Position numbers and translations under genes: made by a program
The notes under the pieces: generated by a model
The model's input: the letters and a program-made list of their open reading frames with translations, nothing else
The model's database searches: none
What the model was told of the DNA's origin: nothing
Virus record (IMG/VR): IMGVR_UViG_3300045988_098821
Reading direction: 5' to 3' (one strand)
DNA from: a virus
Length of the DNA: 62,074 nt
Part shown: positions 10,988 to 55,108 of the stretch, piece by piece
How positions within the stretch are numbered: the stretch's first letter is position 1
Layout: each line of letters starts with the position of its first letter

Positions 10988-11313
10988 TATGCTTCTCCTC
11001 CAATCAAATCAGCCATTATTAAGATGATATCGTCTGTAGTTGCTTCTAATGTATCGATACGTTCTGTATCCGTCCCAACCTCATTCTCATAGTCAAGGTA
11101 CTTACCTGGGTTAGCTTTTACATCGTCCAAATCGAGAGTGCCGGTAGGCTCTGAGATTTCCTTGTAATCATATTCATGATAAGTCTGTTTCTCTTCCTGT
11201 CCCTCTGGAATCTCTGTCACAATGTTCTCATTCAGGCAGATATAGATATAATCTATTCCGTCAATCTGTCTAACAGTAACACTTTCTTGCGCAGTGTCGA
11301 ATCTTGCTTTCAT
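10987..11313 (-). CDS. Acidic hypothetical protein (108 aa) downstream of the DGR reverse transcriptase
   Basis: ORF track; strongly D/E-rich; overlaps the RT 3' end by 44 nt. Confidence 0.55.
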   Translation of the reverse strand: MKARFDTAQESVTVRQIDGIDYIYICLNENIVTEIPEGQEEKQTYHEYDYKEISEPTGTLDLDDVKANPGKYLDYENEVGTDTERIDTLEATTDDIILIMADLIGGEA

Positions 11314-12466
11314 GTGATATCACTCCCTTACATATTTGAATCGTTTTGTTTGCGTTGTATCTTCTTTTTATATTGTAGCTATCCGTGTGGTCTAAGATGC
11401 CTTTGTATGACATGCACTTCCTTGCAAGCCATAATGGAATCTTCTTCCTCTGCTTCACAAGGGATTGTGCTTTCTTGTACGACCGCCTCACTCTTAAGAA
11501 AACTCTTCTTCTAATTGTGATATGCTGTCTGTATATGCGGACACCCATAATATCAATAAAATGACCATCATCTTTGCGTTTTGCGACCGTTGTATATACC
11601 GTCCAACTGTCTTTAATTTCCAATCCCATTTCATCCGCTTTCTGAATAATCAGCCTCATAGCCTTGTGAATGTCTTTTGCATTCGTGCCGAGAATCAAAA
11701 TATCATCCATGAAGAAAAGCTGGTGTTTCACAAGATTAATTCTTTCTGTTGTTCCGCTTCTTTTCTTTCTGATGCGATACATATTCTCCGCTATTTCATG
11801 GTAGATTTGAGATAGGAATAGGTTGCAAAGATACTGACTTAAATATGAACCAATGCTCAATCCTGTGTCGAATGTCATGATTAACATTTCTATCAGTTCA
11901 AGTAGTGATTCATTCTTAATGTATTTCCGAAGAAATTCCATTAATTTGTTTCTGTCTATTGATGGATAACATTTGCTGATATCGCATTGACCAGCGTATC
12001 TGATATTTTTGTTTCTCATCCATCGTTTTATTGCTTTGATACCGTAGGATTGACCTCTACCTTTCAGTGCTGCACATTGGTATTCTCCAATTCGCTTTAA
12101 GAAGTCTTTCATAGCTTCTACTGCGATATAATCGTAGATTTGCTGTTTAATGTTCTGAATTCCGATTCTTCGCACTTTCTGACTGGAAGCGTCAATCTTT
12201 TCTTTGTACCATATTGGTTGAAAGTGAATATTGCCTTGAATGATTTCTTCACGTACTCCGTCAACCACTGTTTCAACCATCGGTTTCATTCCGTTTAATC
12301 CGGACTCATTGAACATTCCTTTAATAGTGTCTGTCGAAAGTCCAGTGTATTCAGAAAACATTGTCAATGAATCTCTTCTTTTGTATTTCTTTTTAAGGCA
12401 TTTGTATACTGCCTTTTGAATCAGTTTTCTATCTGTTATATCGACCGTTTTGCAATACGTCTTCAT
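11270..12466 (-). CDS. DGR reverse transcriptase
   Basis: IGSYLSQYLCNLFL ([ILV]GxxxSQ) and FFMDDILILG (YxDD-type box). ATG 12466 (MKTYCKTVDITDRK) preferred; the 42 upstream codons of the track ORF cover the TR-RT spacer. Confidence 0.9.
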   Translation of the reverse strand: MKTYCKTVDITDRKLIQKAVYKCLKKKYKRRDSLTMFSEYTGLSTDTIKGMFNESGLNGMKPMVETVVDGVREEIIQGNIHFQPIWYKEKIDASSQKVRRIGIQNIKQQIYDYIAVEAMKDFLKRIGEYQCAALKGRGQSYGIKAIKRWMRNKNIRYAGQCDISKCYPSIDRNKLMEFLRKYIKNESLLELIEMLIMTFDTGLSIGSYLSQYLCNLFLSQIYHEIAENMYRIRKKRSGTTERINLVKHQLFFMDDILILGTNAKDIHKAMRLIIQKADEMGLEIKDSWTVYTTVAKRKDDGHFIDIMGVRIYRQHITIRRRVFLRVRRSYKKAQSLVKQRKKIPLWLARKCMSYKGILDHTDSYNIKRRYNANKTIQICKGVISHESKIRHCARKCYC

Positions 12467-12674
12467 CGATTGTCTTTTTAAGGGCTTTCGGTTTGTACTA
12501 CTAACCCCGACAGATAGGCTAACCCTATCCGCCCTTACTCCTTTCGTCAAAAATAAAAGTTTCAGTAGGTCTATAAAAAGTATTTCGGGCATCTGTCCAA
12601 GAGTCTTTGCAAACTACACTCTTTACGAGTGCGAAATACGACGCAAGGATTTTATATTTAGAAATTAACAATTT

Positions 12675-12852: not shown

Positions 12853-14586
12853 TTAATCGCAGCCGAGGAAATACCAGTACGCCCAGCCAAGCCAGCTCCA
12901 GCAAGACACGAACACAGAGCCAGCATGCGACCCATTCCTGAGAGCACCGCGTCCAAGGTCTTCTCGAGTTCCAGATGTAATCTTACCGCCAGCGTAACAT
13001 CTATCGCCCCAACCTTGAGAGTCGCTCTTTCCGATGGCTTTAGCGAACCATGAACAAGTTTCCATATCCACTCCGACATCACCAATCCACCAGTCAGCTC
13101 CATCGTTGCTAGGCATATTCCCAATCAGTTTATATGTGCTCTTGATGGTTGCTTCATCCTTTACGTGCTTCACGCCTCTAGGAGCAATATACATGTCCTT
13201 GCTGTAATCTTCCTTAAACACCATGACCGAATCTGAATATACGATATATCCACCTACTGAATTTTCAATTCCCATGACACGGAATGGATGTTTACCATCT
13301 GTATTCGAACTCATTGAACCATCGTGTTTTCCAATAACCTTATCGGTCGAACCGCTCCGCCAATGCATAGTTGACAGCATAATCTGTGCATTCAGAGTAT
13401 CACTCAATGCTACTGGTGTTGTTGCGAATCCATCTTCGATATCCAAGTACACAGCCTTGTTATTTTCATCGAGCGTTTCAATTCTAAGGACTTTTACATC
13501 ATCAGCGTATCTGTGGATTGTTCCAACTCCACGGTCGTTATTAACCGTATTATCAGTATTTTTTGAGCCATAACCTACAGAAACGTAAGAGCCGACAAGA
13601 ATCTTCGAAGCCTGCGCATTCGTAAGAGGAAAGTAGATTTCTTTTGTATCTCGCTGAATGGATGCTGGAAACTGAGAGTTGTAATCAGTTGTGCCTTTGA
13701 AGATTTTCTGTTCATTCTTTGTAGCATACTTAATCACTTCGTACAGAATGACATACATATTTCTTTCTTTTCCAGCGCCCCAACAGCCTTTTCCTTTTCT
13801 CTGATAATTGTCAATCATGTTGTTGTAACATTGATTTCTAGCTGGTTTAGAACCACTGAATGACCTAAGAAGTCCATCCGTGCCAAGTCCACTGACATAC
13901 TTGCTATGAATCACATAGGAAGCGTAAGTTCCATCTTCTTTTCTAGCCGTTTCCCACGGAATTAATCCGTAATTATCATTCGGAGTGTCGGATAATGTCC
14001 AAACCTGTTTGCCATCTTTCTCAATAGCCGACCAGTACGGAGTCATTGCAATAACACCAACGTCAACAGATCCATCATTCTTATAACCATTTCCCCATCC
14101 CTCGATTGCTGTAGGAATTTTGCGTCCGTAATCATCTGTCACGTAGTTGCAGTTAAACCAGTTAAAAATTCCAATACCCTCATAGTCATCTCTGCCCTCT
14201 ACGGTGTCTGTTGATGGTTCACATACCATGTTCGCATTAGCAAGAGTCTTAACACCGTCAGAGGTTGGGTTTGTTTCTGTCAGATACACTTCTGTCTGAT
14301 ATACTTTTCCATTTCTCATTGACCCGAAGAATGCCTCAAGGATTCTCTCATCAATGGTATCTGTTACATGCTTTACATTCACCATCTCTTCCTTTAGTTT
14401 ATCCACATTCTCTTCCAGCACTGTATAATCCTCTGGGATGCTCTCCAGTGTCTTATTTCCTTTGGCTTCGATCTGTTTGATTAATTCTTCTGTACTCTCT
14501 TCTGCTATGGCATTCATTACTCCGGTATAACTTGTTCCATCTTCATTTTTTACTCTTAGTTTTGTTTTCTTTATGAATACACTCAT
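12853..14586 (-). CDS. DGR target (variable) protein, probable receptor-binding tail protein with C-terminal C-type-lectin-like variable region
   Basis: 577 aa, last gene of the tail module; C-terminus ...GRGALRNGSHAGSVFVSCWSWLGWAYWYFLGCD is encoded by the VR. Confidence 0.85.
   Translation of the reverse strand: MSVFIKKTKLRVKNEDGTSYTGVMNAIAEESTEELIKQIEAKGNKTLESIPEDYTVLEENVDKLKEEMVNVKHVTDTIDERILEAFFGSMRNGKVYQTEVYLTETNPTSDGVKTLANANMVCEPSTDTVEGRDDYEGIGIFNWFNCNYVTDDYGRKIPTAIEGWGNGYKNDGSVDVGVIAMTPYWSAIEKDGKQVWTLSDTPNDNYGLIPWETARKEDGTYASYVIHSKYVSGLGTDGLLRSFSGSKPARNQCYNNMIDNYQRKGKGCWGAGKERNMYVILYEVIKYATKNEQKIFKGTTDYNSQFPASIQRDTKEIYFPLTNAQASKILVGSYVSVGYGSKNTDNTVNNDRGVGTIHRYADDVKVLRIETLDENNKAVYLDIEDGFATTPVALSDTLNAQIMLSTMHWRSGSTDKVIGKHDGSMSSNTDGKHPFRVMGIENSVGGYIVYSDSVMVFKEDYSKDMYIAPRGVKHVKDEATIKSTYKLIGNMPSNDGADWWIGDVGVDMETCSWFAKAIGKSDSQGWGDRCYAGGKITSGTREDLGRGALRNGSHAGSVFVSCWSWLGWAYWYFLGCD
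12860..12952 (-). repeat. DGR variable repeat (VR)
   Basis: Last 31 codons of the target gene; 77/93 identical to TR, with mismatches only opposite TR adenines. Confidence 0.9.
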
Positions 14587-33842: not shown

Positions 33843-34265
33843 TTACAGATAATAAGAGCCGAAATACTTCTCAAACTCTTGTAATGCTCTTCCATGAATT
33901 GACATTGCATTCCGGAAAGTGCATCCCATCTCCACGCTGATTACATTCCAGTCTTTGCATAAGACGTATCTTTCGTACAAGATTCTGTATTGATTTGTAT
34001 TTGGAATCATCTCTATCTGTTGGACAATTTCTTTTTTCTTTTTTAGTGAGCGTTCAACAGAATCTGCAAGCTCTGCTTCTGCATCTGCAATTTTAGAGAC
34101 AAGACTTCCCATTTTGTCCGGTTCTCCACTGCTCTGGACATTAACTTCTTTCGGAGACACAGAAATAGAACAAGCCATATCTCTCAACTGATTAATTTCT
34201 TCCATTTTGTTCTTAATTCTGAAATTTAACCTTGAAATCTGTCCTAAATATGTTTTTGTATCCAT
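33843..34265 (-). CDS. Sigma-70 region-4-like regulator (DUF1492/ArpU-like), candidate late regulator
   Basis: 140 aa; YLGQISRLNFRIKNKMEEINQLRD...YRILYERYVLCKDWNVISVEMGCTFRNAMSIHGRALQEF. Confidence 0.5.
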   Translation of the reverse strand: MDTKTYLGQISRLNFRIKNKMEEINQLRDMACSISVSPKEVNVQSSGEPDKMGSLVSKIADAEAELADSVERSLKKKKEIVQQIEMIPNTNQYRILYERYVLCKDWNVISVEMGCTFRNAMSIHGRALQEFEKYFGSYYL

Positions 34266-36010
34266 TATCTATACCCTCCTCTAAACGGATTGTGTACCGC
34301 TTCGACTCTTGGTGGTTCCCATGTTCCCTCAATAAAATATGCAAGCGACGCAAGGCAATCAGGAGCGTCTTCATGCTTGTTTTTCCCCTTAATGGTAAAA
34401 GAGTATAGATTCCTCATAAAGTTCCTATATTCTTGATTTCTGAACCCAGTATCGCGAAAATAAAACTCACGTATAGAACCGGCTTTGTCCCAAATTCTCT
34501 GACTTTTTCTCATTGATGTAGGTGCATACTGAGAAACAAGAGTTACCTTATGTCCTTTTTCTCTCAGTATTTCGTCCACTTCATCTTTGTAACCCTCTCC
34601 ACCTTGGTTTGATTCAAAATACACACTTCCTATGTTGTGGTCAATAATCATATTCACAACTTTTGGCTTTGTGATTTTCTTTTCTGAATTATCAAAAATG
34701 ACATCATCAATGTATATGGACCCGTCTTCGTACATGTAAGCCACGGCAAATGCCAAGTAGTCTTCACCTCCGAGAGCCACATCACATGCAGCGCAAATTC
34801 TATATGGTTCTTGAGCTGGGAGCACTCCATTGTAGAATCTCATGTGTTCTTGATTAAATACAGCTCCGTCCCTTTCAATAGGTTCCTGCTGGCACTGTGC
34901 ATACCATCCGGCCATATCATCGTTTTCTTCAAATTTTGCACGTTTGATCCTATAGAATTTTGTTGAAAATCCAACTCCATAGTCATAATCAAAGTTACTT
35001 TCATCTGTAACTGGATCAAGTGCTGGAATCTTCAAAATATCATACCTGATATCTTTTGCCTCTGGATTGTTCTCTAAAAAATCCAATCTGTCCATGTAGA
35101 TATCTTTCAGACTCCAAATTGTACCGTTGTAGATTATTTTGCATTTCTCTTTCTTACGGGTCATTACGTTGTTGTCAAAGATGGTCTGCTTTCTTTTGAG
35201 AACATCTGGGTTTAAAACATCCTGAATACCCTCGATAATGTCATCAACAATTAGCCATCCATACGCATCGTATTCGCCGTTAAGTCCGGATGTAAGTCCT
35301 TTTCCGGAAAGAGATTTATATTTTTTCTTTCTTCCTAAATCAACTTTATTGTTTTTCAAGTCAGTATCTTTGATAATTCCTTTTGGGAACACCTCTTTAA
35401 AGCAATAAGTCGGGTCGGTCCATATTTCCATAACTCCATCAAGGAACGCACTTCCAAGGCCCTCTTTGTATGTTACGTACAAATTGCTCGCTTCCATATC
35501 TCTAGCGCATTTCCATGAAGTAGCAAGCGTAAGTTCTTGGCTTTTACCAACACGGGCAGGCATATGAACAAACAGTTCATCTAATAAATCGTCTTCAAGC
35601 ATCTGAATCTTGTCAGTTACCAATTTCAGTGTTTTTCTTCTTGGCTCGTAGAATCTGTCTCTTCGTTTTCTGTTTTTTTCCACATACAGCATATAGCTGT
35701 CAAGAATTTCCGGTGCTTCTATTTTCAAAATCTTATAATACTGATTAATCAAGTCAAACTCTGTCTTATTCTGCTGAGCATAATCTTCAAGCCACGCAAA
35801 ATCCCCACCGTTTGTCTGTTTTTTTATGATTTGATTAACAATCTGCTTTGCTCTATCAGAAACTTGCAATCCGTACTTTATGTCTTTCTCTTGCTCAAAT
35901 GCAGTCTGAACCGCAAGGATGTACGCATCAAGCACCTGTTCATCAATCCCCTTACGCTCTATGTAATTTTCATACCCTTTTACGGTTTTAATCAAATAAT
36001 CGCTTGCCAT
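34265..36010 (-). CDS. terL: Terminase large subunit
   Basis: 581 aa; Walker-A-like HMPARVGKSQ; size and position upstream of the portal. Confidence 0.85.
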   Translation of the reverse strand: MASDYLIKTVKGYENYIERKGIDEQVLDAYILAVQTAFEQEKDIKYGLQVSDRAKQIVNQIIKKQTNGGDFAWLEDYAQQNKTEFDLINQYYKILKIEAPEILDSYMLYVEKNRKRRDRFYEPRRKTLKLVTDKIQMLEDDLLDELFVHMPARVGKSQELTLATSWKCARDMEASNLYVTYKEGLGSAFLDGVMEIWTDPTYCFKEVFPKGIIKDTDLKNNKVDLGRKKKYKSLSGKGLTSGLNGEYDAYGWLIVDDIIEGIQDVLNPDVLKRKQTIFDNNVMTRKKEKCKIIYNGTIWSLKDIYMDRLDFLENNPEAKDIRYDILKIPALDPVTDESNFDYDYGVGFSTKFYRIKRAKFEENDDMAGWYAQCQQEPIERDGAVFNQEHMRFYNGVLPAQEPYRICAACDVALGGEDYLAFAVAYMYEDGSIYIDDVIFDNSEKKITKPKVVNMIIDHNIGSVYFESNQGGEGYKDEVDEILREKGHKVTLVSQYAPTSMRKSQRIWDKAGSIREFYFRDTGFRNQEYRNFMRNLYSFTIKGKNKHEDAPDCLASLAYFIEGTWEPPRVEAVHNPFRGGYR

Positions 36011-36268: not shown

Positions 36269-36460
36269 CTATTTCTTCCTTTCGAACAGTTCTTCTGGCA
36301 GTGGTTCTCCCATCCAAACCATTCTTAGATATTTGCGGAATGTCGGAGTACAGACACCCATTTTCTTTGCCGCTTCATCCATTTTAATTTTATGGCTGCA
36401 ATAATCATTAATTGCTTCAACAAACTTTTCTCTGTCAAGCACCTTAATTTTTCTTCCCAT
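36269..36460 (-). CDS. Small HTH DNA-binding protein upstream of TerL
   Basis: 63 aa; AAKKMGVCTPTFRKYLRMV HTH-like. Confidence 0.5.
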   Translation of the reverse strand: MGRKIKVLDREKFVEAINDYCSHKIKMDEAAKKMGVCTPTFRKYLRMVWMGEPLPEELFERKK

Positions 36461-36503
36461 CGGAACTCTCCTTTCTTCTCTTCACATTTCCAATTATTTC
36501 AAA

Positions 36504-36574
36504 CAAGCGTAACTGGAATCGAACCAGTACATCAGGAGTCAAAGTCCTGTGCTCTGCCTTTAAGCTATACGCCC
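36504..36574 (-). tRNA. tRNA-Gln (anticodon UUG)
   Basis: Hand fold: GGGCGTA/TA/GCTT-AAAGGCA-GAGC/A/CAGGA-CTTTGAC-TCCTG/ATGT/ACTGG-TTCGATT-CCAGT/TACGCTT/G; two G-U pairs at the acceptor end. Confidence 0.8.
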
Positions 36575-37310
36575 TTAGCTGCAAGAAATTTACCTCGAAA
36601 GCCGTAAGGAATCCTTGCACTGCTACGGTTCTTTATAATATTGGAGTTTATTATATGATCGATAAACCACGTCTTTTATTTAAAAAACGTTAGTTTCCGA
36701 GCTTCAGCGAACTCCGCAGCTAAAACGCTGATTGAATTTTAATTCAAACATGATTAGGGTTTCCCCTTATTTAATCATGGTAAAAGTCATATTCTGCCAC
36801 TGTGATGATAGGTCTGAGCTTCCGAGAGCGACTCTTGGCTTCCTACCACTGTCAAAGCACACACTGGATTGATACCAGTAAATTTCACGGTTCTTTCAGA
36901 ATGTTTTGTTTAACGATTTTTCTTATCACCTTTAAATCATTTTATTGAAAACAAGAATTTGCCATACCGCTACTTTAACGACTTTCTTGTGTTATACACT
37001 GATTTCTCAGCTTCAAGGCAAATCGGCTTCTTGAGAATTTCCATCTCTGTTGGTAGTCTCTCACACCACGAACTAAATGGATTGTTCTTGCACTGCAAGC
37101 GTCTATTGATCGCCGACCACAAGGAGTCTGCTATTGACTTCTCTATGATGATACACTGCAAGGCATTGTTGACGGTTTCCGTCTTCACCAATGGAATCAC
37201 TCCCACTGGAAAGAATCAGCTTATCCAATATCTCGAACAAGCCTATCTCGTTACGATTGCATCTCGGCATGACTGAAAAATCACTCTTCACCGAGTTAAT
37301 CATGTTTGAA
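36575..37310 (-). ncRNA. Candidate large structured non-coding RNA (~736 nt) between tRNA-Gln and a tRNA-like element
   Basis: No credible ORF. Many helices, some with GAAA loops, plus a 12-bp long-range helix (36952-36963 with 37017-37033). G-U pairs favour minus-strand sense. Confidence 0.55.
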
Positions 37311-37371
37311 TTGCCGTGGTCGGATTCGAACCAACACATTTCACACGTTCTACCAATTGAACTACACGGCA
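37311..37371 (-). ncRNA. tRNA-like element lacking the anticodon arm
   Basis: TGCCGTG/TA/GTTC-AATTGGTA-GAAC/G/TGTGAAATGT/GTTGG-TTCGAAT-CCGAC/CACGGCA/A: intact acceptor, D and T arms, but only 10 nt where about 22 nt (anticodon arm + variable loop) belong. Confidence 0.6.
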
Positions 37372-37429
37372 AACCGAAAGGAAAAAATCTTATGAAAGGA
37401 TGACTCTCCAAGTTCACCACGCTTGGAGA

Positions 37430-37503
37430 AGCTACCGCCCGGAATCGAACCGGGACCCTGTTGATTCGTAATCAACTGCTCTATCCATTTGAGCTATGAT
37501 AGC
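37430..37503 (-). tRNA. tRNA-Arg (anticodon ACG)
   Basis: Hand fold: GCTATCA/TA/GCTC-AAATGGATA-GAGC/A/GTTGA-TTACGAA-TCAAC/AGGGT/CCCGG-TTCGATT-CCGGG/CGGTAGC/T; one A-C at position 7:66. Confidence 0.8.
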
Positions 37504-37612
37504 ATTTCACGGTTTTTGAAATTTTTTAATCACTTTAAACTTATGGGAATCAAAACTAATCTAAAGGAAAATGGCATATTGACTGCAAATAAGGCGCGTA
37601 CATGAGGGGTGT

Positions 37613-37636
37613 TTCTGAGAACCGTGAAACTCAGAA
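37613..37636 (-). other. Hairpin immediately 3' of tRNA-Met; its 10-nt loop is complementary to two distant sites
   Basis: 7-bp stem ttctgag/ctcagaa. Loop aaccgtgaaa (37620-37629) is the reverse complement of tttcacggtt at 37505-37514 and 36883-36892. Confidence 0.7.
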
Positions 37637-37638
37637 AT

Positions 37639-37711
37639 AGCAGATGCCGGAGTCGAACCGACTATTTCAAGATCATGACTCTTGCGTGGTATTCCGTTCC
37701 ACTCATCTGCA
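37639..37711 (-). tRNA. tRNA with CAU anticodon (Met or Ile2), non-canonical details
   Basis: Hand fold: TGCAGAT/GA/GTGG-AACGGAATA-CCAC/G/CAAGA-GTCATGA-TCTTG/AAATA/GTCGG-TTCGACT-CCGGC/ATCTGCT; has a U1:U72 mismatch and G at position 8. Confidence 0.6.
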
Positions 37712-37713
37712 AA

Positions 37714-37796
37714 CGCCGTATGAAGGATTCGAACCTCCAAGTCATTTCTGACCGAACGCTTAGCAAGCGTCTCCGATACCATTACGGGAATACGGC
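37714..37796 (-). tRNA. tRNA-Ser (anticodon GCU), long variable arm
   Basis: Hand fold: GCCGTAT/TC/CCG-TAATGGTAT-CGG/A/GACGC-TTGCTAA-GCGTT/variable arm GTCA-GAAA-TGAC/GGAGG-TTCGAAT-CCTTC/ATACGGC/G. Confidence 0.8.
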
Positions 37797-38106
37797 TTAT
37801 CGAAGATGCGTTTTTACTGAACAGTCATCTCCCATTAAACAGGTTCCGTGATTTTTCATGTGTATACCCACTACTGCGCTCACGTTCGGCTACAGCCTAT
37901 CACTGCCAGTTCTCCGCAAAGATCCTGGGTTGAGTTGCACATCATACGTCAGATTAACAATCAACAACGATATTCTGACGGAACCGATTTCAGAATCGGC
38001 TAAACCTACCGGGACTTGTGACGTCCCTTTATTCAGCTTTCCGCTAGTAGGTGGAGAATCGTCACATGGACGAATATATGAAACCAAGTATTGGTAAATG
38101 CCTTAA
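37797..38106 (-). ncRNA. Hairpin-rich non-coding leader upstream of the tRNA cluster
   Basis: 310 nt without a credible ORF; hairpins at 37947-37980 (7 bp), 37984-37999 (6 bp) and 38011-38027 (5 bp). Confidence 0.4.
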
Positions 38107-38355
38107 TTATTTTTTTGGCGTTGAAATTGCAAATCCAAGAAATCCAACAAAAATGATTACCGCCATAACAATCACTGAAAGAAATGCTTTTACGATTGTT
38201 ATCCAAATAATCGCTGCTGTAAGTTGTCCTGCATCCAAAGCAATACAAGCTGTCAAAATTGATTTAAACAAAAGCAAATATCCTCCGACATAAAGTCCTC
38301 CGGCAACTCCGGCAATGAGAAATGCAATTGCTAAAATCCATCTTAATTTCTTCAT
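38107..38355 (-). CDS. Small multi-pass membrane protein (82 aa)
   Basis: ORF track; hydrophobic throughout (ILAIAFLIAGVAGGLYVGGYLLLF...). Confidence 0.6.
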   Translation of the reverse strand: MKKLRWILAIAFLIAGVAGGLYVGGYLLLFKSILTACIALDAGQLTAAIIWITIVKAFLSVIVMAVIIFVGFLGFAISTPKK

Positions 38356-44622: not shown

Positions 44623-45384
44623 ATGAAAGCACAGAGAAATTGGATCACACCAGATGGAAAGAGTTTTGTAATCTATGGGAACATGATGGAGCAGCCGCAT
44701 TTGTTAGTGGCTGGAGCTACTGGATCAGGAAAATCCGTGGTAATCAATGGGATTATCACAACTGCACTATTCGAAGCACCGTCTCAAGTACAGTTCATTC
44801 TTATCGACCCGAAGAGGGTGGAACTCGTAGACTATAGATATCTTCCGCACACGGCGTTCTACGCATCCGAACCGGCTGAGATGGTCATAGGATTGCAGAG
44901 GGCTATGAATACCATTGAAATGAGATATACACAGATGCAGAGAGCACACGAGAAAAAATACCAGGGAACGCAGTTATATGTTATTATTGACGAATTAGCA
45001 GACTTAATGACCACGAACAAAAAACAGGTAATGCCACTAATCCAACGCATAGCACAAATAGGACGTGCCGCCGGAGTCCATCTAATCTGCGCGACTCAGT
45101 GTCCACTTGCCAAGGTCATACCGACAGAAATCAAAGTCAATTTTGATGCCCGTGTTGGACTGCGTACGAGGTCAGCGCAAGACAGTAGAAATATATTAGG
45201 CTTTAACGGTTGCGAGTATTTACCGCGCTATGGGCAAGCATATTATATGAATCCTGATAGCGGAGTAAAAAAAATAGTTGTTCCGATGTACGACAAGAGT
45301 GAAACATGGCGTTTGATTAATCACTGGATGCGGCAGTGCACACCGAAAAAGAAAGGTTTCTTTGAAAGATTGTTTGGAAGGTAA
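44623..45384 (+). CDS. FtsK/SpoIIIE-type motor-domain ATPase (stand-alone, 253 aa)
   Basis: Walker A VAGATGSGKS, Walker B LYVIIDELADL, ICATQCP (ATQRP-like) motif; no TM or gamma domain. Confidence 0.75.
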   Translation: MKAQRNWITPDGKSFVIYGNMMEQPHLLVAGATGSGKSVVINGIITTALFEAPSQVQFILIDPKRVELVDYRYLPHTAFYASEPAEMVIGLQRAMNTIEMRYTQMQRAHEKKYQGTQLYVIIDELADLMTTNKKQVMPLIQRIAQIGRAAGVHLICATQCPLAKVIPTEIKVNFDARVGLRTRSAQDSRNILGFNGCEYLPRYGQAYYMNPDSGVKKIVVPMYDKSETWRLINHWMRQCTPKKKGFFERLFGR

Positions 45385-47233: not shown

Positions 47234-47485
47234 TTATTTGCGGAAATTATTCAGCAATTCTTCTTTTAACTCCATCTTCCCGGCTCTAAAACCGAGCTTG
47301 AAAGCGTAGATCAGTGCTTTTGTCTTCCCCATCTCCACTTTGTCGGCAATCGTAACCAATGGCAGCAGGTCTTCCGCAAAGTAATCTGTAACCACACTGT
47401 CGCTGATCGGGCGAATTTTCTCTTCGATATTATTCATCGTGCTTCTCATATCGCTGACTTTTACTTTAAGCTTCCTTGCTACCAT
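47234..47485 (-). CDS. Hypothetical protein (83 aa)
   Basis: ORF track. Confidence 0.55.
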   Translation of the reverse strand: MVARKLKVKVSDMRSTMNNIEEKIRPISDSVVTDYFAEDLLPLVTIADKVEMGKTKALIYAFKLGFRAGKMELKEELLNNFRK

Positions 47486-48158
47486 TATTTTTCTCCTCTC
47501 TATGTTCTACCCTTGATTCGTAAATGCTGTCAATCACGGTTTTTGCACGTTCAGCCATGTCAGGGAAGAAGTCAAATAAATCTAATTTGCTTTCAAGTCT
47601 CTTTCCTGTCCCCATAATATATCTGATTTCTGCTTCCTCAAGGTCGAATTTTTCTTCAATGTAAGGAAATATAAGCTCAAACAAAAATTCTTCTTCTACA
47701 CCGTAGCTGCTACAAATAGCTGCTATTTTATATCTGTTTTTTCTGTAGAACGTCACTGGTTTAGGTGCCGGGATGCTAGATACCTTCGGTCTCTGCGGAA
47801 TTTCTGCCACTTCTCTCGCTCTGAAATAGGTATTCACAAGTCTTCTCTGAACATTCCACGACAATTCATCTTTGAATGTCTTAAAAATCATCAGATAACC
47901 GCTTTCGGTCAAATAAGTGACTCCCTTTGGTGGGATTTCTCCAATGTGGTTATTAGCCACATTGAAATCTTCTCTTGTGATAACGAAATAATCTTCATTT
48001 TCCAAGAAGTGAGATTTGTTCTTATAGAAGTTATTTCTAGCAGTTCCAAACTTTCTCTGGTGAACTTCATCAATGTCCTTGAAAGTAACTACTCTCTGTC
48101 CTTTGTATTCTCTGATAGGTAATACTATTTCACTTACTGCTAAATTCTCTTTTGTCAT
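47466..48158 (-). CDS. ORF6N-domain antirepressor-like protein
   Basis: IREYKGQRVVTFKDIDEVHQRKFGTARNNFYKNKSHFLENEDYFVI...YLTESGYLMIFKTF is an ORF6N signature. Confidence 0.7.
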   Translation of the reverse strand: MTKENLAVSEIVLPIREYKGQRVVTFKDIDEVHQRKFGTARNNFYKNKSHFLENEDYFVITREDFNVANNHIGEIPPKGVTYLTESGYLMIFKTFKDELSWNVQRRLVNTYFRAREVAEIPQRPKVSSIPAPKPVTFYRKNRYKIAAICSSYGVEEEFLFELIFPYIEEKFDLEEAEIRYIMGTGKRLESKLDLFDFFPDMAERAKTVIDSIYESRVEHREEKNNGSKEA

Positions 48159-48179
48159 ATTCTTATCCTCCATATCAAA

Positions 48180-53896: not shown

Positions 53897-55108
53897 TTAT
53901 GAAATTTTTTGTTTAAAATCCACGATATTATTTGGCGTATTATCTACCAGTTTTTCAATATCATTAAAAGATTTTTCTTTCGTAACATGAGTGTATAAAT
54001 CAAGAGTCATTTTAACACTTGCATGACCTAAATATGATTGAACAACTTTAGGATCGATTTCGTGTTCAAAACATCGAGTGGCAAACGTATGCCTAAATGT
54101 ATGTCCACTAAAATTTTTGAACAAATCATTGTTAGGTCGCAACAAATTTATTTCTCTTATAACCGCATGTATAGCATCTGCATATATCACTGAATTTATC
54201 GGAGTATTGTACTTTGTAGTGAACAAAAAATCATTCTGTTCTTTTGGTCTCTTGCTTGATACTATCGCTTTTTGTTGAATCTGTCTTTCGAGATATATTT
54301 TACAAACGCTGTTTATCGGAACTTTCCTATAACTCTGCTTTGTTTTTGGTTCTTCTAGGTGAAAAGTCTTTCTGGTATCTGTAAGATACTTTTGGTACAC
54401 TAACGTTTTGTTTACATCGATGAACCCATTTTCAAAATCGATATCTGATTCTGTCAGCGCAAAAAGCTCTCCTGGTCTCATTCCAGTATTTACTGCAACA
54501 TTAAACATATTATCATAAAATGTATTTTTGCAATATTCAAAGAAAATGTTCTGTTCTTCAAGAGTAAGAGATTTAGCTTTAGATTCTTTCTTGTCTATAA
54601 CTTTTGCTCCTAAAACCGGGTTTTTTGAAATCAGATTATCTTCAAGAGCTCTAGCCATTAGATCTGATAATATGACTTTGATTTTATTTTGCCTTTCATA
54701 CCCATATCCATTTGTATGAGCCAATGTTATTATTCTTTGAATATCTGATTTAACCAAAGAATTTATGTTGCGATTTCCTATAAAAGGTGATATATTCTTA
54801 TTGTATATGTGAGTGTATTCTCTGAGAGTATTAGGGCGTACACTCTTTTCTTTATATATCTTTATCCATTGATTAAACCAATTATCCAATTTTACGGTTT
54901 CTCTTACACTTACAAATGTTTCATTTTCTGCAATTTTAACAGCAAGATCTTTTCTTAATTCAGATAACTTTTTTGAATATATTGTCTTGGAATTGCCAAA
55001 CCTATCTTTATATCTTCCTTGATAGGTCCCGTTTTTTCTTTGAGTTATCCCAACTCCTAGTTCTTTTCCTTTTAAATCCTTTCCCATTATTTTTTTTGCT
55101 CCTTCCAC
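53897..55108 (-). CDS. int: Tyrosine integrase (Tn916-type)
   Basis: 403 aa; catalytic GMRPGE (R), HTFRHT (HxxR), LDLYTH (Y); N-terminal GITQRKNGTYQGRYKDRFG arm-binding-like domain. Alternative ATG at 55087. Confidence 0.85.
   Translation of the reverse strand: MEGAKKIMGKDLKGKELGVGITQRKNGTYQGRYKDRFGNSKTIYSKKLSELRKDLAVKIAENETFVSVRETVKLDNWFNQWIKIYKEKSVRPNTLREYTHIYNKNISPFIGNRNINSLVKSDIQRIITLAHTNGYGYERQNKIKVILSDLMARALEDNLISKNPVLGAKVIDKKESKAKSLTLEEQNIFFEYCKNTFYDNMFNVAVNTGMRPGELFALTESDIDFENGFIDVNKTLVYQKYLTDTRKTFHLEEPKTKQSYRKVPINSVCKIYLERQIQQKAIVSSKRPKEQNDFLFTTKYNTPINSVIYADAIHAVIREINLLRPNNDLFKNFSGHTFRHTFATRCFEHEIDPKVVQSYLGHASVKMTLDLYTHVTKEKSFNDIEKLVDNTPNNIVDFKQKIS

What the first reader, a model, noticed from the sequence alone, without database searches (positions are those of the whole stretch)
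36575..37310. A 736-nt ORF-free, helix-dense segment flanked by tRNA genes: candidate large ornate phage RNA
The genome is otherwise packed gene to gene, but 36461-38106 is non-coding apart from tRNAs. Read in the tRNA (minus) sense, 36575-37310 contains many helices (given-strand coordinates): a stem-internal loop-GGG-GAAA-CCC hairpin at 36749-36779; UUGAAUU-AA-AAUUCAA at 36732-36747; and a three-way junction with CUGA-GAAA-UCAG (36999-37010) and GUGU-AUA-ACAC (36989-36999), closed by CUUG/CAAG and then by a 12-bp long-range helix (36952-36963 with 37017-37033, 5-nt bulge). Further helices are UGGUAGG/CCUAUCA (36842-36848 with 36806-36812), GACGG-AAA-CCGUC (37171-37183), CGUUUUUU-AAAU-AAAAGACG (36670-36689), and a 10-bp helix abutting tRNA-Gln (36576-36585 with 36614-36625). 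At least two helices contain G-U pairs that would be A-C on the other strand, which supports minus-sense RNA. From established knowledge, the large GOLLD and ROOL RNAs of Firmicutes and their prophages characteristically lie next to tRNA genes, and recent structures show them as multimeric cages. I cannot tell from memory whether this sequence matches either consensus; it may be a different class.
Basis: partly seen in the sequence, partly recalled or inferred. Interest (0 to 1): 0.8.

Follow-up and report, generated by a model that had tools for sequence, protein, structure and literature searches.

The report
ROOL RNA in phage tRNA island
The gene-free stretch is a full-length copy of ROOL, a known large phage RNA that self-assembles into hollow cages and whose function is unknown; here it sits between tRNA-like elements in a temperate gut-Clostridia phage, so the identification is ordinary but the surroundings give some new leads.

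Summary
The segment is a ROOL RNA (Rfam RF03087) on the minus strand at 37319-36736. It scores 376.7 bits against a threshold of 99.1, covers the whole model, and has E = 1e-86. No GOLLD, intron, tmRNA or RNase P match and no coding signal was found.

In 112 distinct homologues from gut viromes, 97.5% of pair positions form standard pairs. 95 of 156 pairs show compensatory changes, against 22-32 in slid controls. About half of the helices it named are the real ones.

What I add:
- **Ends set by tRNA-like elements.** The 5' end of ROOL abuts a 61-nt tRNA-like element that lacks an anticodon arm. In 93 of 103 related loci a tRNA, a degenerate tRNA-like element or a small Y-shaped element abuts the 5' end, and 50 have a tRNA at the 3' end. 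This suggests, but does not show, that RNase Z and RNase P set the ends.
- **A conserved 3' module.**
- **ROOL is dispensable.** Near-identical phages lack ROOL or keep only a stub.

Relatives in the fetched loci and in Clostridium/Lachnospiraceae prophages point to a gut Clostridia host. ROOL's function remains unknown.

The parts
36736..37319 (-). ROOL RNA (Rfam RF03087), full length, 584 nt
   Evidence: cmscan gives 376.7 bits against a gathering score of 99.1, E 1.2e-86, model positions 1-574 of 574. The RNAalifold consensus of 112 homologues gives 153 of 156 standard pairs in the window copy. Covariation is shown.
37298..37312 (-). ROOL P1 5' strand, AAUUCAAACAUGAUU; pairs with 36741-36755
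   Evidence: Perfect 15-bp complement in the sequence. Helix 1 is 96.1% paired, and 6 of 12 pairs change on both sides.
36741..36755 (-). ROOL P1 3' strand, AAUCAUGUUUGAAUU
36903..36957 (-). Variable linker of ROOL, a loop closed by GCGGU/ACCGU (36970-36966 with 36891-36887)
   Evidence: Alignment A1 columns about 391-470 vary in length and sequence. The closing helices 22-23 are conserved. In the cryo-EM structures the linker is disordered and lies inside the cage (PMC12286853).
37311..37371 (-). 61-nt tRNA-like element without an anticodon arm; it abuts and overlaps the ROOL P1 start by 2 nt
   Evidence: Rfam tRNA model 49.4 bits, with 15 anticodon-arm positions replaced by 4 nt. ARAGORN makes no call. 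It folds as a 7-bp acceptor stem, a D arm and a T arm. The same element is kept in the ROOL-less relative L002.
36575..36735 (-). Conserved 3' module between ROOL and tRNA-Gln. It comprises hairpin S1 (36731-36704) with an invariant loop UUUUAGCUGCGGAGUU, a variable insert, the invariant sequence AAAGAACCGUAGCAG (motif B, 36631-36620), and hairpin S3 (36619-36580).
   Evidence: Searches show at least 6 complementary S1 variants and at least 5 S3 variants. The loop is complementary to motif B, with a C-G to U-A compensatory variant. The exact two-motif pattern occurs in 68 IMG/VR contigs. ROOL lies directly upstream in 38 of 44 distinct contexts. There is no Rfam match at E <= 1.
36504..36574 (-). 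tRNA-Gln (UUG), the 3' boundary of the ROOL-plus-module unit
   Evidence: ARAGORN; Rfam 66.2 bits.
37430..37503 (-). tRNA-Arg (ACG)
37638..37711 (-). tRNA-Met (CAU)
37714..37796 (-). tRNA-Ser (GCU)
38003..38052 (-). About 50-nt Y-shaped mini tRNA-like element in the leader of the island: outer stem, AGC-GGAAA-GCU hairpin, and a 5-bp hairpin with loop GUCACAA
   Evidence: Fold z-score -3.18. In 21 distinct variants 95.9% of pair positions are paired, and 8 of 14 pairs change on both sides, against 0-2 in slid controls. The same element abuts the ROOL 5' end in the L114 group of loci. There is no Rfam match at E <= 1.
38106..38133 (-). Weak sigma-70-like promoter match upstream of the island (TTTGCA-16-AATAAT)
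   Evidence: The match is no better than shuffled sequence, so it is only a candidate.

Best explanation
The segment encodes a ROOL RNA, a member of a known family of roughly 580-nt structured non-coding RNAs of phages and Firmicutes.

Shown here:
- Family membership, strand and full length.
- A conserved, covarying fold.
- Location inside a minus-strand tRNA island just upstream of the small-HTH/TerL packaging genes of a temperate siphovirus-like phage. The phage carries an integrase, an anti-repressor, terminase, portal, major head and tape-measure genes.
- TerL relatives, several carrying ROOL in the same position, in Clostridium sp./Lachnospiraceae prophages and in the fetched IMG/VR contigs.

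Inferred from homology with ROOL RNAs solved by cryo-EM (env-120, E. faecalis, L. salivarius): the RNA folds on its own and assembles with copies of itself into a hollow hexameric or octameric cage.

Inferred from anatomy:
- ROOL is transcribed together with the tRNAs.
- Its 5' end is made by RNase Z (or 3' trimming) at the discriminator of the abutting anticodon-arm-less tRNA-like element, around 37311/37310.
- The 3' boundary is made by RNase P at the 5' end of tRNA-Gln, at 36575/36574.
- This would give a roughly 736-nt precursor or product that carries the conserved 161-nt pseudoknotted module at its 3' end. In solved cages that position points outward.

Not known: what the cage does. My best guess, at low confidence (about 0.3), is an accessory, dispensable fitness factor tied to the phage tRNA set, acting in translation support or as a counter-measure to tRNA-targeting host defence, rather than in virion assembly.
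For: Identity:
- Rfam ROOL match of 376.7 bits against 99.1, E 1.2e-86, full model. The same result comes from the permissive search.
- Eight relatives score 265-379 bits.

Fold:
- 153 of 156 consensus pairs are standard in the window copy.
- Across 112 distinct homologues 97.5% of pair positions are paired, and 95 of 156 pairs change on both sides, against 22-32 in slid controls. 0 of 500 shuffles reach any of the five measures.

Non-coding: overlapping ORFs have no Pfam or PHROG hits.

Context:
- TerL, portal, major head and tape-measure genes; integrase, anti-repressor and endolysin.
- Prophage relatives with ROOL in a tRNA array in Clostridium sp. OF03-18AA and AM30-24.

Processing model:
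- The tRNA-like element overlaps P1 by 2 nt.
- In 103 distinct loci, 59 have an ARAGORN tRNA ending 1-5 nt before the P1 core. 80 have a T-arm plus acceptor 3' strand there. 13 more have the Y element there. 50 have a tRNA within 15 nt of the 3' end. 100 of 103 have a tRNA or tRNA-like T arm abutting at least one side.
- The abutting tRNA identity varies over 12 anticodons, and many are non-decoding remnants. This argues that the tRNA shape, not decoding, is what is kept.
- The phage tRNAs encode no CCA. In Bacillota, by established knowledge, such tRNAs are RNase Z substrates.

Cage: cryo-EM shows octamers or hexamers for three ROOLs, and 3' fusions, including a tRNA precursor, do not disturb the cage (PMC12286853, PMC12990946, PMC12515178).

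Dispensability: phages with 97-100% identical TerL lack ROOL (L002) or keep only P1 plus the terminal hairpin (L001, L007, L025).
Against: - There are no expression data for this phage. Transcript ends, abundance and oligomer state are all inferred.
- The promoter match is no better than chance.
- L. salivarius ROOL is not reported next to tRNAs in the paper I read and has ends mapped by RACE (PMC5643018), so tRNA-defined ends are not universal.
- Ten loci (the L020 group) have no tRNA-like element at the 5' end.
- The sample of loci is not independent. It was fetched with a ROOL pattern and with TerL relatives, mostly from one IMG/VR dataset (3300045988).
- Loss of ROOL in close relatives is also what a merely tolerated passenger would show.
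Confidence: 0.85

Rival explanations
1. ROOL here has its own promoter and terminator, or other nucleases make its ends. The abutting tRNA-like elements would then be leftovers of recombination within tRNA arrays and play no part in maturation.
For: L. salivarius ROOL has RACE-mapped ends and no tRNA neighbour is reported. Ten related loci lack a 5' tRNA-like element. tRNA genes are known recombination and integration hot spots, which could by itself place cassette boundaries at tRNA ends. Remnant half-tRNAs occur in L184 and L124.
Against: The abutment is exact, 1-5 nt, in 59 loci, and it occurs with 12 different tRNA identities. Degenerate elements keep the acceptor and T arms while losing decoding parts. 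No promoter- or terminator-like site lies between the flanking tRNAs and ROOL; the only terminator-like hits there are internal ROOL helices.
Confidence: 0.25
2. The copy is a passenger: a structurally intact but functionally neutral cassette that spreads by recombination among phage tRNA islands and is being lost in some lineages.
For: Presence/absence polymorphism occurs among phages with 97-100% identical TerL, and stubs remain in L001, L007 and L025. ROOL is non-essential in L. salivarius (PMC12286853).
Against: Compensatory changes in 95 of 156 pairs and 97.5% pairing across 112 distinct copies indicate sustained selection on the fold. The window copy keeps 153 of 156 pairs.
Confidence: 0.1
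3. The segment is a different large RNA class (GOLLD, HEARO, OLE, group I/II intron, tmRNA, RNase P) or a new class.
Against: Only ROOL and tRNA models match 36400-38200 at meaningful scores. All other hits at E <= 1 fall far below their gathering scores.
Confidence: 0.01
4. The segment is a protein-coding gene disrupted by sequencing errors.
For: Mechanical ORFs of 78-105 aa overlap it on both strands.
Against: Those ORFs use GTG or TTG starts and have no Pfam or PHROG match. Homologues differ by many indels and by paired compensatory substitutions typical of RNA helices.
Confidence: 0.01

Closest known systems
ROOL RNA (Rfam RF03087; env-120, Enterococcus faecalis and Ligilactobacillus salivarius ROOL solved by cryo-EM)
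   Same: Full-length match to the family model, a size of 584 nt, a multi-junction fold with covariation, a variable internal linker, and a phage and tRNA-array context (PMC5737381, PMC12286853, PMC12990946).
   Different: Nothing in the core. This copy lies in a temperate phage whose relatives are in gut Lachnospiraceae/Clostridium genomes. It is flanked 5' by a non-decoding tRNA-like element and 3' by a conserved 161-nt module that the Rfam model does not cover. Oligomer state was not tested.
GOLLD RNA
   Same: A large ornate RNA of phages and prophages found in tRNA arrays that forms cages. Some GOLLDs embed tRNAs (PMC12286853, PMC12990946).
   Different: Unrelated sequence and fold. No GOLLD match here.
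tRNA punctuation and tRNA-like processing handles (mitochondrial polycistrons; the mascRNA element at the MALAT1 3' end). This comparison is from my own knowledge.
   Same: A tRNA-shaped element placed exactly at the end of another RNA, so that RNase P or RNase Z would release it. Here the elements have lost decoding parts but keep the acceptor and T arms.
   Different: Cleavage is not shown here. The system is bacterial and phage, and ROOL is the non-tRNA product.
YrlA / bacterial Y RNA tRNA-like domain (RF02553)
   Same: A tRNA mimic with acceptor, D and T arms but no anticodon arm.
   Different: YrlA replaces the anticodon arm with a long Ro-binding helix; here only 4 nt are left. The score is 18.4 bits against a gathering score of 69, so it is not a member.

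Membership tests
ROOL RNA (RF03087) | Covariance-model score at or above Rfam's gathering score over the whole model | tested here: met
   376.7 bits against 99.1; model positions 1-574 of 574; E 1.2e-86.
ROOL RNA (RF03087) | Length of about 580 nt | tested here: met
   584 nt at 36736-37319. The family mean is 581 nt (PMC5737381).
ROOL RNA (RF03087) | Complex multi-junction secondary structure maintained by compensatory changes | tested here: met
   31 helices and 156 pairs; 97.5% of pair positions are paired; 95 pairs change on both sides, against 22-32 when slid.
ROOL RNA (RF03087) | Three pseudoknots | tested here: inconclusive
   The cmscan structure line carries no pseudoknots. One candidate, UUGCC 37021-37017 with GGCAA 36963-36959, is 97.7% paired but invariant.
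ROOL RNA (RF03087) | Variable, poorly conserved internal linker closed by conserved helices | tested here: met
   Alignment A1 columns about 391-470 vary in length. The flanking helices 22-23 are near-invariant.
ROOL RNA (RF03087) | Occurrence in phages or prophages, often beside tRNA genes | tested here: met
   Phage structural and lysogeny genes. Four tRNAs plus one tRNA-like element in the same island.
ROOL RNA (RF03087) | Self-assembly into a homo-oligomeric nanocage (hexamer or octamer) | not testable with these tools
   Known only for env-120, Efa and Lsa ROOL. Testing needs mass photometry or cryo-EM of this transcript.
ROOL RNA (RF03087) | Discrete, abundant transcript | not testable with these tools
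   No expression data are available for this phage. Abundance is reported for L. salivarius.
GOLLD RNA | Match to the Rfam GOLLD model | tested here: not met
   No hit at the gathering score or at E <= 1.
tRNA (for 37311-37371) | Match to the tRNA covariance model | tested here: met
   49.4 bits against 29.
tRNA (for 37311-37371) | Anticodon arm with a 7-nt loop and a readable anticodon | tested here: not met
   15 model positions are replaced by 4 nt. ARAGORN makes no call. The fold shows an 11-nt unpaired connector. It is therefore tRNA-like, not a decoding tRNA.
YrlA / Y RNA-like (RF02553) | Match to the family model | tested here: not met
   18.4 bits against a gathering score of 69.

The most novel reading that the evidence does not exclude
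In these phages ROOL would be a tRNA-punctuated cassette. Degenerate, non-decoding tRNA-like handles would serve as RNase Z and RNase P cleavage signals that set its ends. These handles include the anticodon-arm-less 61-mer, tRNA-likes with 13-14-nt 'anticodon' loops, half-tRNAs, and a 50-nt Y-shaped mini tRNA-like element. ROOL would also carry a previously undescribed conserved pseudoknotted 3' module, displayed on the outside of the cage. Both the Y element and the 3' module would be new RNA motifs. The natural ROOL-plus and ROOL-minus phage pairs, together with prophages in cultured Clostridium isolates, would make ROOL function testable.
Probability: 0.4. Interest if true: 0.55.

Novelty: new member of a known kind. 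Interest (0 to 1): 0.38.

Why it matters
ROOL is one of the few natural RNAs known to build a closed cage, and nobody knows what it is for. This copy adds nothing new to the family definition. Its surroundings give three concrete handles:
- **A testable maturation route.** tRNA-like elements sit exactly at the boundaries of ROOL.
- **A possible natural cargo.** A conserved 3' appendage may be displayed on the cage.
- **Material for function tests.** Near-isogenic phages exist with and without ROOL, and related prophages occur in cultured gut Clostridium isolates, so loss-of-function comparisons could be done.

Tried and rejected
- **Rfam consensus structure mapped onto the window copy.** I transferred it from the cmscan alignment and got only 119 of 154 standard pairs. 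The Infernal alignment is one position out of register in the A/U-rich P1 and some other helices. I therefore used the RNAalifold consensus of 112 homologues instead, which gives 153 of 156.
- **fold_alignment on the 112-sequence alignment.** The output was cut before the pair table, so I redid the analysis in Python and with the count of structure pairs.
- **MAFFT alignment of the 3' module (A2).** The stems were not in register, so it could not be used for pair counting. I tabulated stem variants directly instead.
- **Search for close relatives in GenBank phages.** The near search found none. The distant search matched only tRNA segments.
- **3' module pattern in GTDB species genomes.** Zero hits with a gap of 60-90. 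Shorter gaps were not searched there.
- **Folding energies of the other spacers.** 37504-37637 and 37797-38106 fold no better than shuffles overall.
- **Other identities considered.** I considered hammerhead, pistol or other small ribozymes, and known gut RNA motifs, for the Y element and the 3' module. There is no Rfam hit at E <= 1, so they are left unassigned.
- **Literature.** I did not find the exact tRNA abutment, or its use for processing, described in the papers I read. I could not read Ling et al. (Nature 2025) itself.

Full report
**What is there**

The stretch 36461-38106 lies between a 63-aa HTH-like ORF (36269-36460, just upstream of the large terminase gene at 34265-36010) and an 82-aa ORF (38107-38355). 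All of these are on the minus strand.

ARAGORN finds four minus-strand tRNAs: Gln 36504-36574, Arg 37430-37503, Met 37638-37711 and Ser 37714-37796.

A scan of the whole window against Rfam 15 at gathering thresholds returns one non-tRNA family. It is ROOL (RF03087) at 37319-36736 on the minus strand. The score is 376.7 bits against a gathering score of 99.1, E = 1.2e-86, and all 574 model positions are covered.

A permissive scan of 36400-38200 (E <= 1) adds only noise far below family thresholds. There is no GOLLD, HEARO, OLE, intron, tmRNA or RNase P match.

The mechanical ORFs that overlap the region (78-105 aa, GTG or TTG starts) have no Pfam or PHROG match.

**Is the fold real?**

A ROOL core pattern and the TerL protein brought in 199 loci from IMG/VR, and two later pattern scans brought the total to 238. 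nhmmer found ROOL homologues in 143 of the first 199 loci. Eight that I checked with Rfam score 265-379 bits.

I aligned 112 distinct copies (A1). Transferring the Rfam structure line through the cmscan alignment gave a poor fit, 119 of 154 pairs, because the alignment is out of register by one in some helices. The RNAalifold consensus of the alignment gives 31 helices and 156 pairs, of which 153 are standard pairs in the window copy.

On that structure:
- 97.5% of pair positions form standard pairs.
- 95 of 156 pairs show changes on both sides.
- Sliding the 3' partners by 1-3 columns gives 36-44% pairing and 22-32 such pairs.
- None of 500 column shuffles reaches the observed values.

The structure was derived from these same sequences, so the 'percentage paired' figure is flattered. 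The number of compensatory pairs is not explained by that.

Four of the named helices are true ROOL helices:
- GGG-GAAA-CCC.
- CUGA-GAAA-UCAG.
- UGGUAGG/CCUAUCA.
- GACGG-AAA-CCGUC.

A fifth, the helix abutting tRNA-Gln, is real but belongs to the 3' module described below.

The others are local alternatives to long-range helices or are not conserved. Details are in the observation check.

The strand argument from G-U pairs holds. Several G-U pairs are invariant in more than 100 copies.

**Genome context**

The window is a temperate siphovirus-like phage. It encodes terminase, portal, major head and tape-measure proteins. It also encodes an endolysin, an integrase, an anti-repressor and repressor-like regulators.

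No near relative exists among GenBank phages. Many relatives exist in IMG/VR, mostly in dataset 3300045988.

The closest TerL relatives in GTDB species genomes, at 68-85% identity, are in Clostridium sp. OF03-18AA, Clostridium sp. AM30-24 and two Lachnospiraceae MAGs. The two Clostridium loci carry ROOL in a tRNA array upstream of TerL. There tRNA-Asn ends where ROOL begins, and in one locus tRNA-Met begins where ROOL ends.

The host is therefore most likely a gut member of the Lachnospiraceae or Clostridia. This is an inference.

**The 5' boundary**

Rfam's tRNA model, but not ARAGORN, matches 37371-37311 at 49.4 bits. The acceptor stem, D arm and T arm are intact, while the 15 positions of the anticodon arm are replaced by 4 nt. 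It folds that way on its own.

Its discriminator base is 37311. ROOL's P1 helix is a perfect 15-bp duplex of 37312-37298 with 36755-36741, so it starts at 37312 and the two elements overlap by 2 nt.

In 103 distinct ROOL loci with 400 nt of flank:
- 59 have an ARAGORN tRNA ending 1-5 nt before the P1 core, with 12 different anticodons.
- 80 have a T arm plus acceptor 3' strand at that place.
- 50 have a tRNA within 15 nt of the ROOL 3' end.
- 100 have a tRNA or a tRNA-like T arm abutting at least one side.

Reading the 5' neighbours shows that many cannot decode:
- 'Anticodon' loops of 13-14 nt.
- A form without a D arm.
- 3' halves of tRNA-Arg.
- The anticodon-arm-less form, in the window and in L002.

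In 13 further loci (the L114 group) the neighbour is a roughly 50-nt Y-shaped element. With these, 93 of 103 loci have some tRNA-shaped element at the ROOL 5' end.

The window has a copy of the Y element at 38052-38003, about 50 nt downstream of a weak promoter-like site. Across 21 distinct variants its three helices are 95.9% paired, and 8 of 14 pairs change on both sides, against 0-2 in slid controls.

None of the phage tRNAs here encodes CCA. In Bacillota, by established knowledge, CCA-less tRNA precursors are cut after the discriminator by RNase Z, and RNase P cuts at the tRNA 5' end.

I therefore infer that ROOL is released from a polycistronic tRNA-island transcript by these two enzymes. 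I also infer that the degenerate tRNA-like elements persist because they are processing signals. This is not shown.

The papers I read say only that ROOL is often near or within tRNA arrays and may be co-transcribed with tRNAs (PMC5737381; PMC12286853; PMC12990946). They also report that a tRNA precursor fused to the ROOL 3' end does not disturb the cage (PMC12515178).

**The remaining 161 nt (36735-36575)**

This 'spacer' is 97-99% identical in the closest relatives. Its two motifs recur in more distant ones. The architecture is:
- Hairpin S1, in the window UCAGCG/CGCUGA at 36731-36726 and 36709-36704, closing an invariant loop UUUUAGCUGCGGAGUU.
- A variable insert of 40-87 nt.
- The invariant sequence AAAGAACCGUAGCAG (motif B).
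- Hairpin S3 at 36619-36580.
- GCUAA, followed directly by the next tRNA.

S1 occurs in at least six different, fully complementary sequence versions and S3 in at least five.

The loop segment GCUGCGG is complementary to CCGUAGC in motif B. One group of loci has AGUUGCGG with CCGUAAC, a C-G to U-A double change. Another has UUGCGGUU with AACCGCAA. This supports an H-type pseudoknot, but on few independent changes.

The exact two-motif pattern occurs in 68 IMG/VR contigs. With a gap of 60-90 it occurs in no GTDB species genome. In 38 of 44 distinct contexts ROOL lies 14-23 nt or about 70 nt upstream. The rest include ROOL-less derivatives.

No Rfam family matches it at E <= 1.

**ROOL is dispensable and behaves as a cassette**

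Among phages whose TerL is 97-100% identical to the window's:
- L003-L006 have ROOL, at about 88-90% identity.
- L002 has the same tRNA-like 61-mer joined directly to the 3' module, with no ROOL.
- L001, L007 and L025 keep only the P1 5' strand, the terminal GGGG-AAA-CCC hairpin and the P1 3' strand.

Rfam confirms the absence of ROOL in L001 and L002.

In the window ROOL is flanked by a direct repeat AAUUCAA (37312-37306 and 36738-36732), and L002 has one copy at the junction. I cannot tell deletion from insertion.

**Function**

No tool here can address function. By homology the RNA should form a hexameric or octameric cage.

Three facts frame the question:
- ROOL is constantly embedded among phage tRNAs.
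- It can be lost without loss of the phage.
- Its fold is under strong selection.

These fit an accessory factor linked to the phage tRNA set. I hold that loosely, at about 0.3. A neutral passenger is the main alternative.

**Verdict**

The finding is real and correctly interpreted. It is a typical member of a known family, so it is ordinary as an identification. The boundary elements, the 3' module and the natural ROOL-plus and ROOL-minus pairs are modestly interesting leads that need experiments.

Noticed in passing
window 36575-36735 (minus): A conserved pseudoknotted module sits between ROOL and tRNA-Gln. It consists of a hairpin with the invariant loop UUUUAGCUGCGGAGUU, a variable insert, the invariant sequence AAAGAACCGUAGCAG, and a second covarying hairpin. 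It has no Rfam match, occurs in 68 IMG/VR contigs, and almost always lies just 3' of ROOL.
   Followed up: partly
window 37311-37371 (minus); also L002 5218-5278: A 61-nt tRNA-like element has acceptor, D and T arms but no anticodon arm. ARAGORN misses it. It overlaps the ROOL P1 start by 2 nt and is retained in a relative that lacks ROOL.
   Followed up: partly
window 38003-38052 (minus); L114, L030, L031 and others directly 5' of ROOL: A roughly 50-nt Y-shaped mini tRNA-like element (outer stem, AGC-GGAAA-GCU hairpin, 5-bp hairpin with loop GUCACAA) has covarying stems and no Rfam match. It is widespread among the TerL-related phages.
   Followed up: partly
L002 5150-5420; L001 4040-4400; L007 4740-5100; L025: Phages with 97-100% identical TerL either lack ROOL cleanly (L002) or keep only a stub of P1 plus the terminal hairpin (L001, L007, L025). 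These are natural ROOL-plus and ROOL-minus pairs.
   Followed up: partly
window 37306-37312 and 36732-36738 (minus): A direct repeat AAUUCAA flanks ROOL. L002 has a single copy at the empty site.
   Followed up: no
window, 14 sites, including 36625-36632, 36887-36894, 37509-37516 and 37618-37625: ARAACCGT occurs 14 times against 2.55 expected (0 of 100 shuffles reach 14). In the RNA island it marks the 3' strands of long-range helices that close variable regions: the ROOL linker, the 3' module and the Arg-Met spacer. Its meaning is unknown.
   Followed up: no
window 37504-37637 (minus): The spacer between tRNA-Met and tRNA-Arg is closed by an 11-bp helix, GUUUCACGGUU with AACCGUGAAAU. The 3' strand repeats the conserved ROOL motif ACCGUGAAAU. 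The overall fold is no better than shuffles.
   Followed up: no
loci L005, L004, L091, L097, L100, L161, L190 and others, just 5' of ROOL: Relatives carry odd tRNA genes: 13-14-nt 'anticodon' loops, a predicted 4-base anticodon (cccc), a suppressor-like tRNA (uua), a form without a D arm (L115), and 3' halves of tRNA-Arg (L184, L124).
   Followed up: no
window 11270-12592 (minus) and 12853-14586 (minus): A reverse transcriptase gene (PHROG 1423, E 5e-61) sits beside tail-region genes. This may be a diversity-generating retroelement. The template and variable repeats were not looked for.
   Followed up: no
window 44623-45384 (plus); 53897-55108 (minus); 47466-48173 (minus): An FtsK/SpoIIIE-like ATPase is encoded on the minority strand. 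An integrase and an anti-repressor indicate a temperate lifestyle.
   Followed up: no
cmscan alignment of ROOL: This is a technical point. The Infernal alignment to RF03087 is out of register by one in P1 and a few other helices for this clade: 119 of 154 standard pairs when transferred, against 153 of 156 with the alifold consensus. The A/U-rich P1 of the model carries little information.
   Followed up: yes
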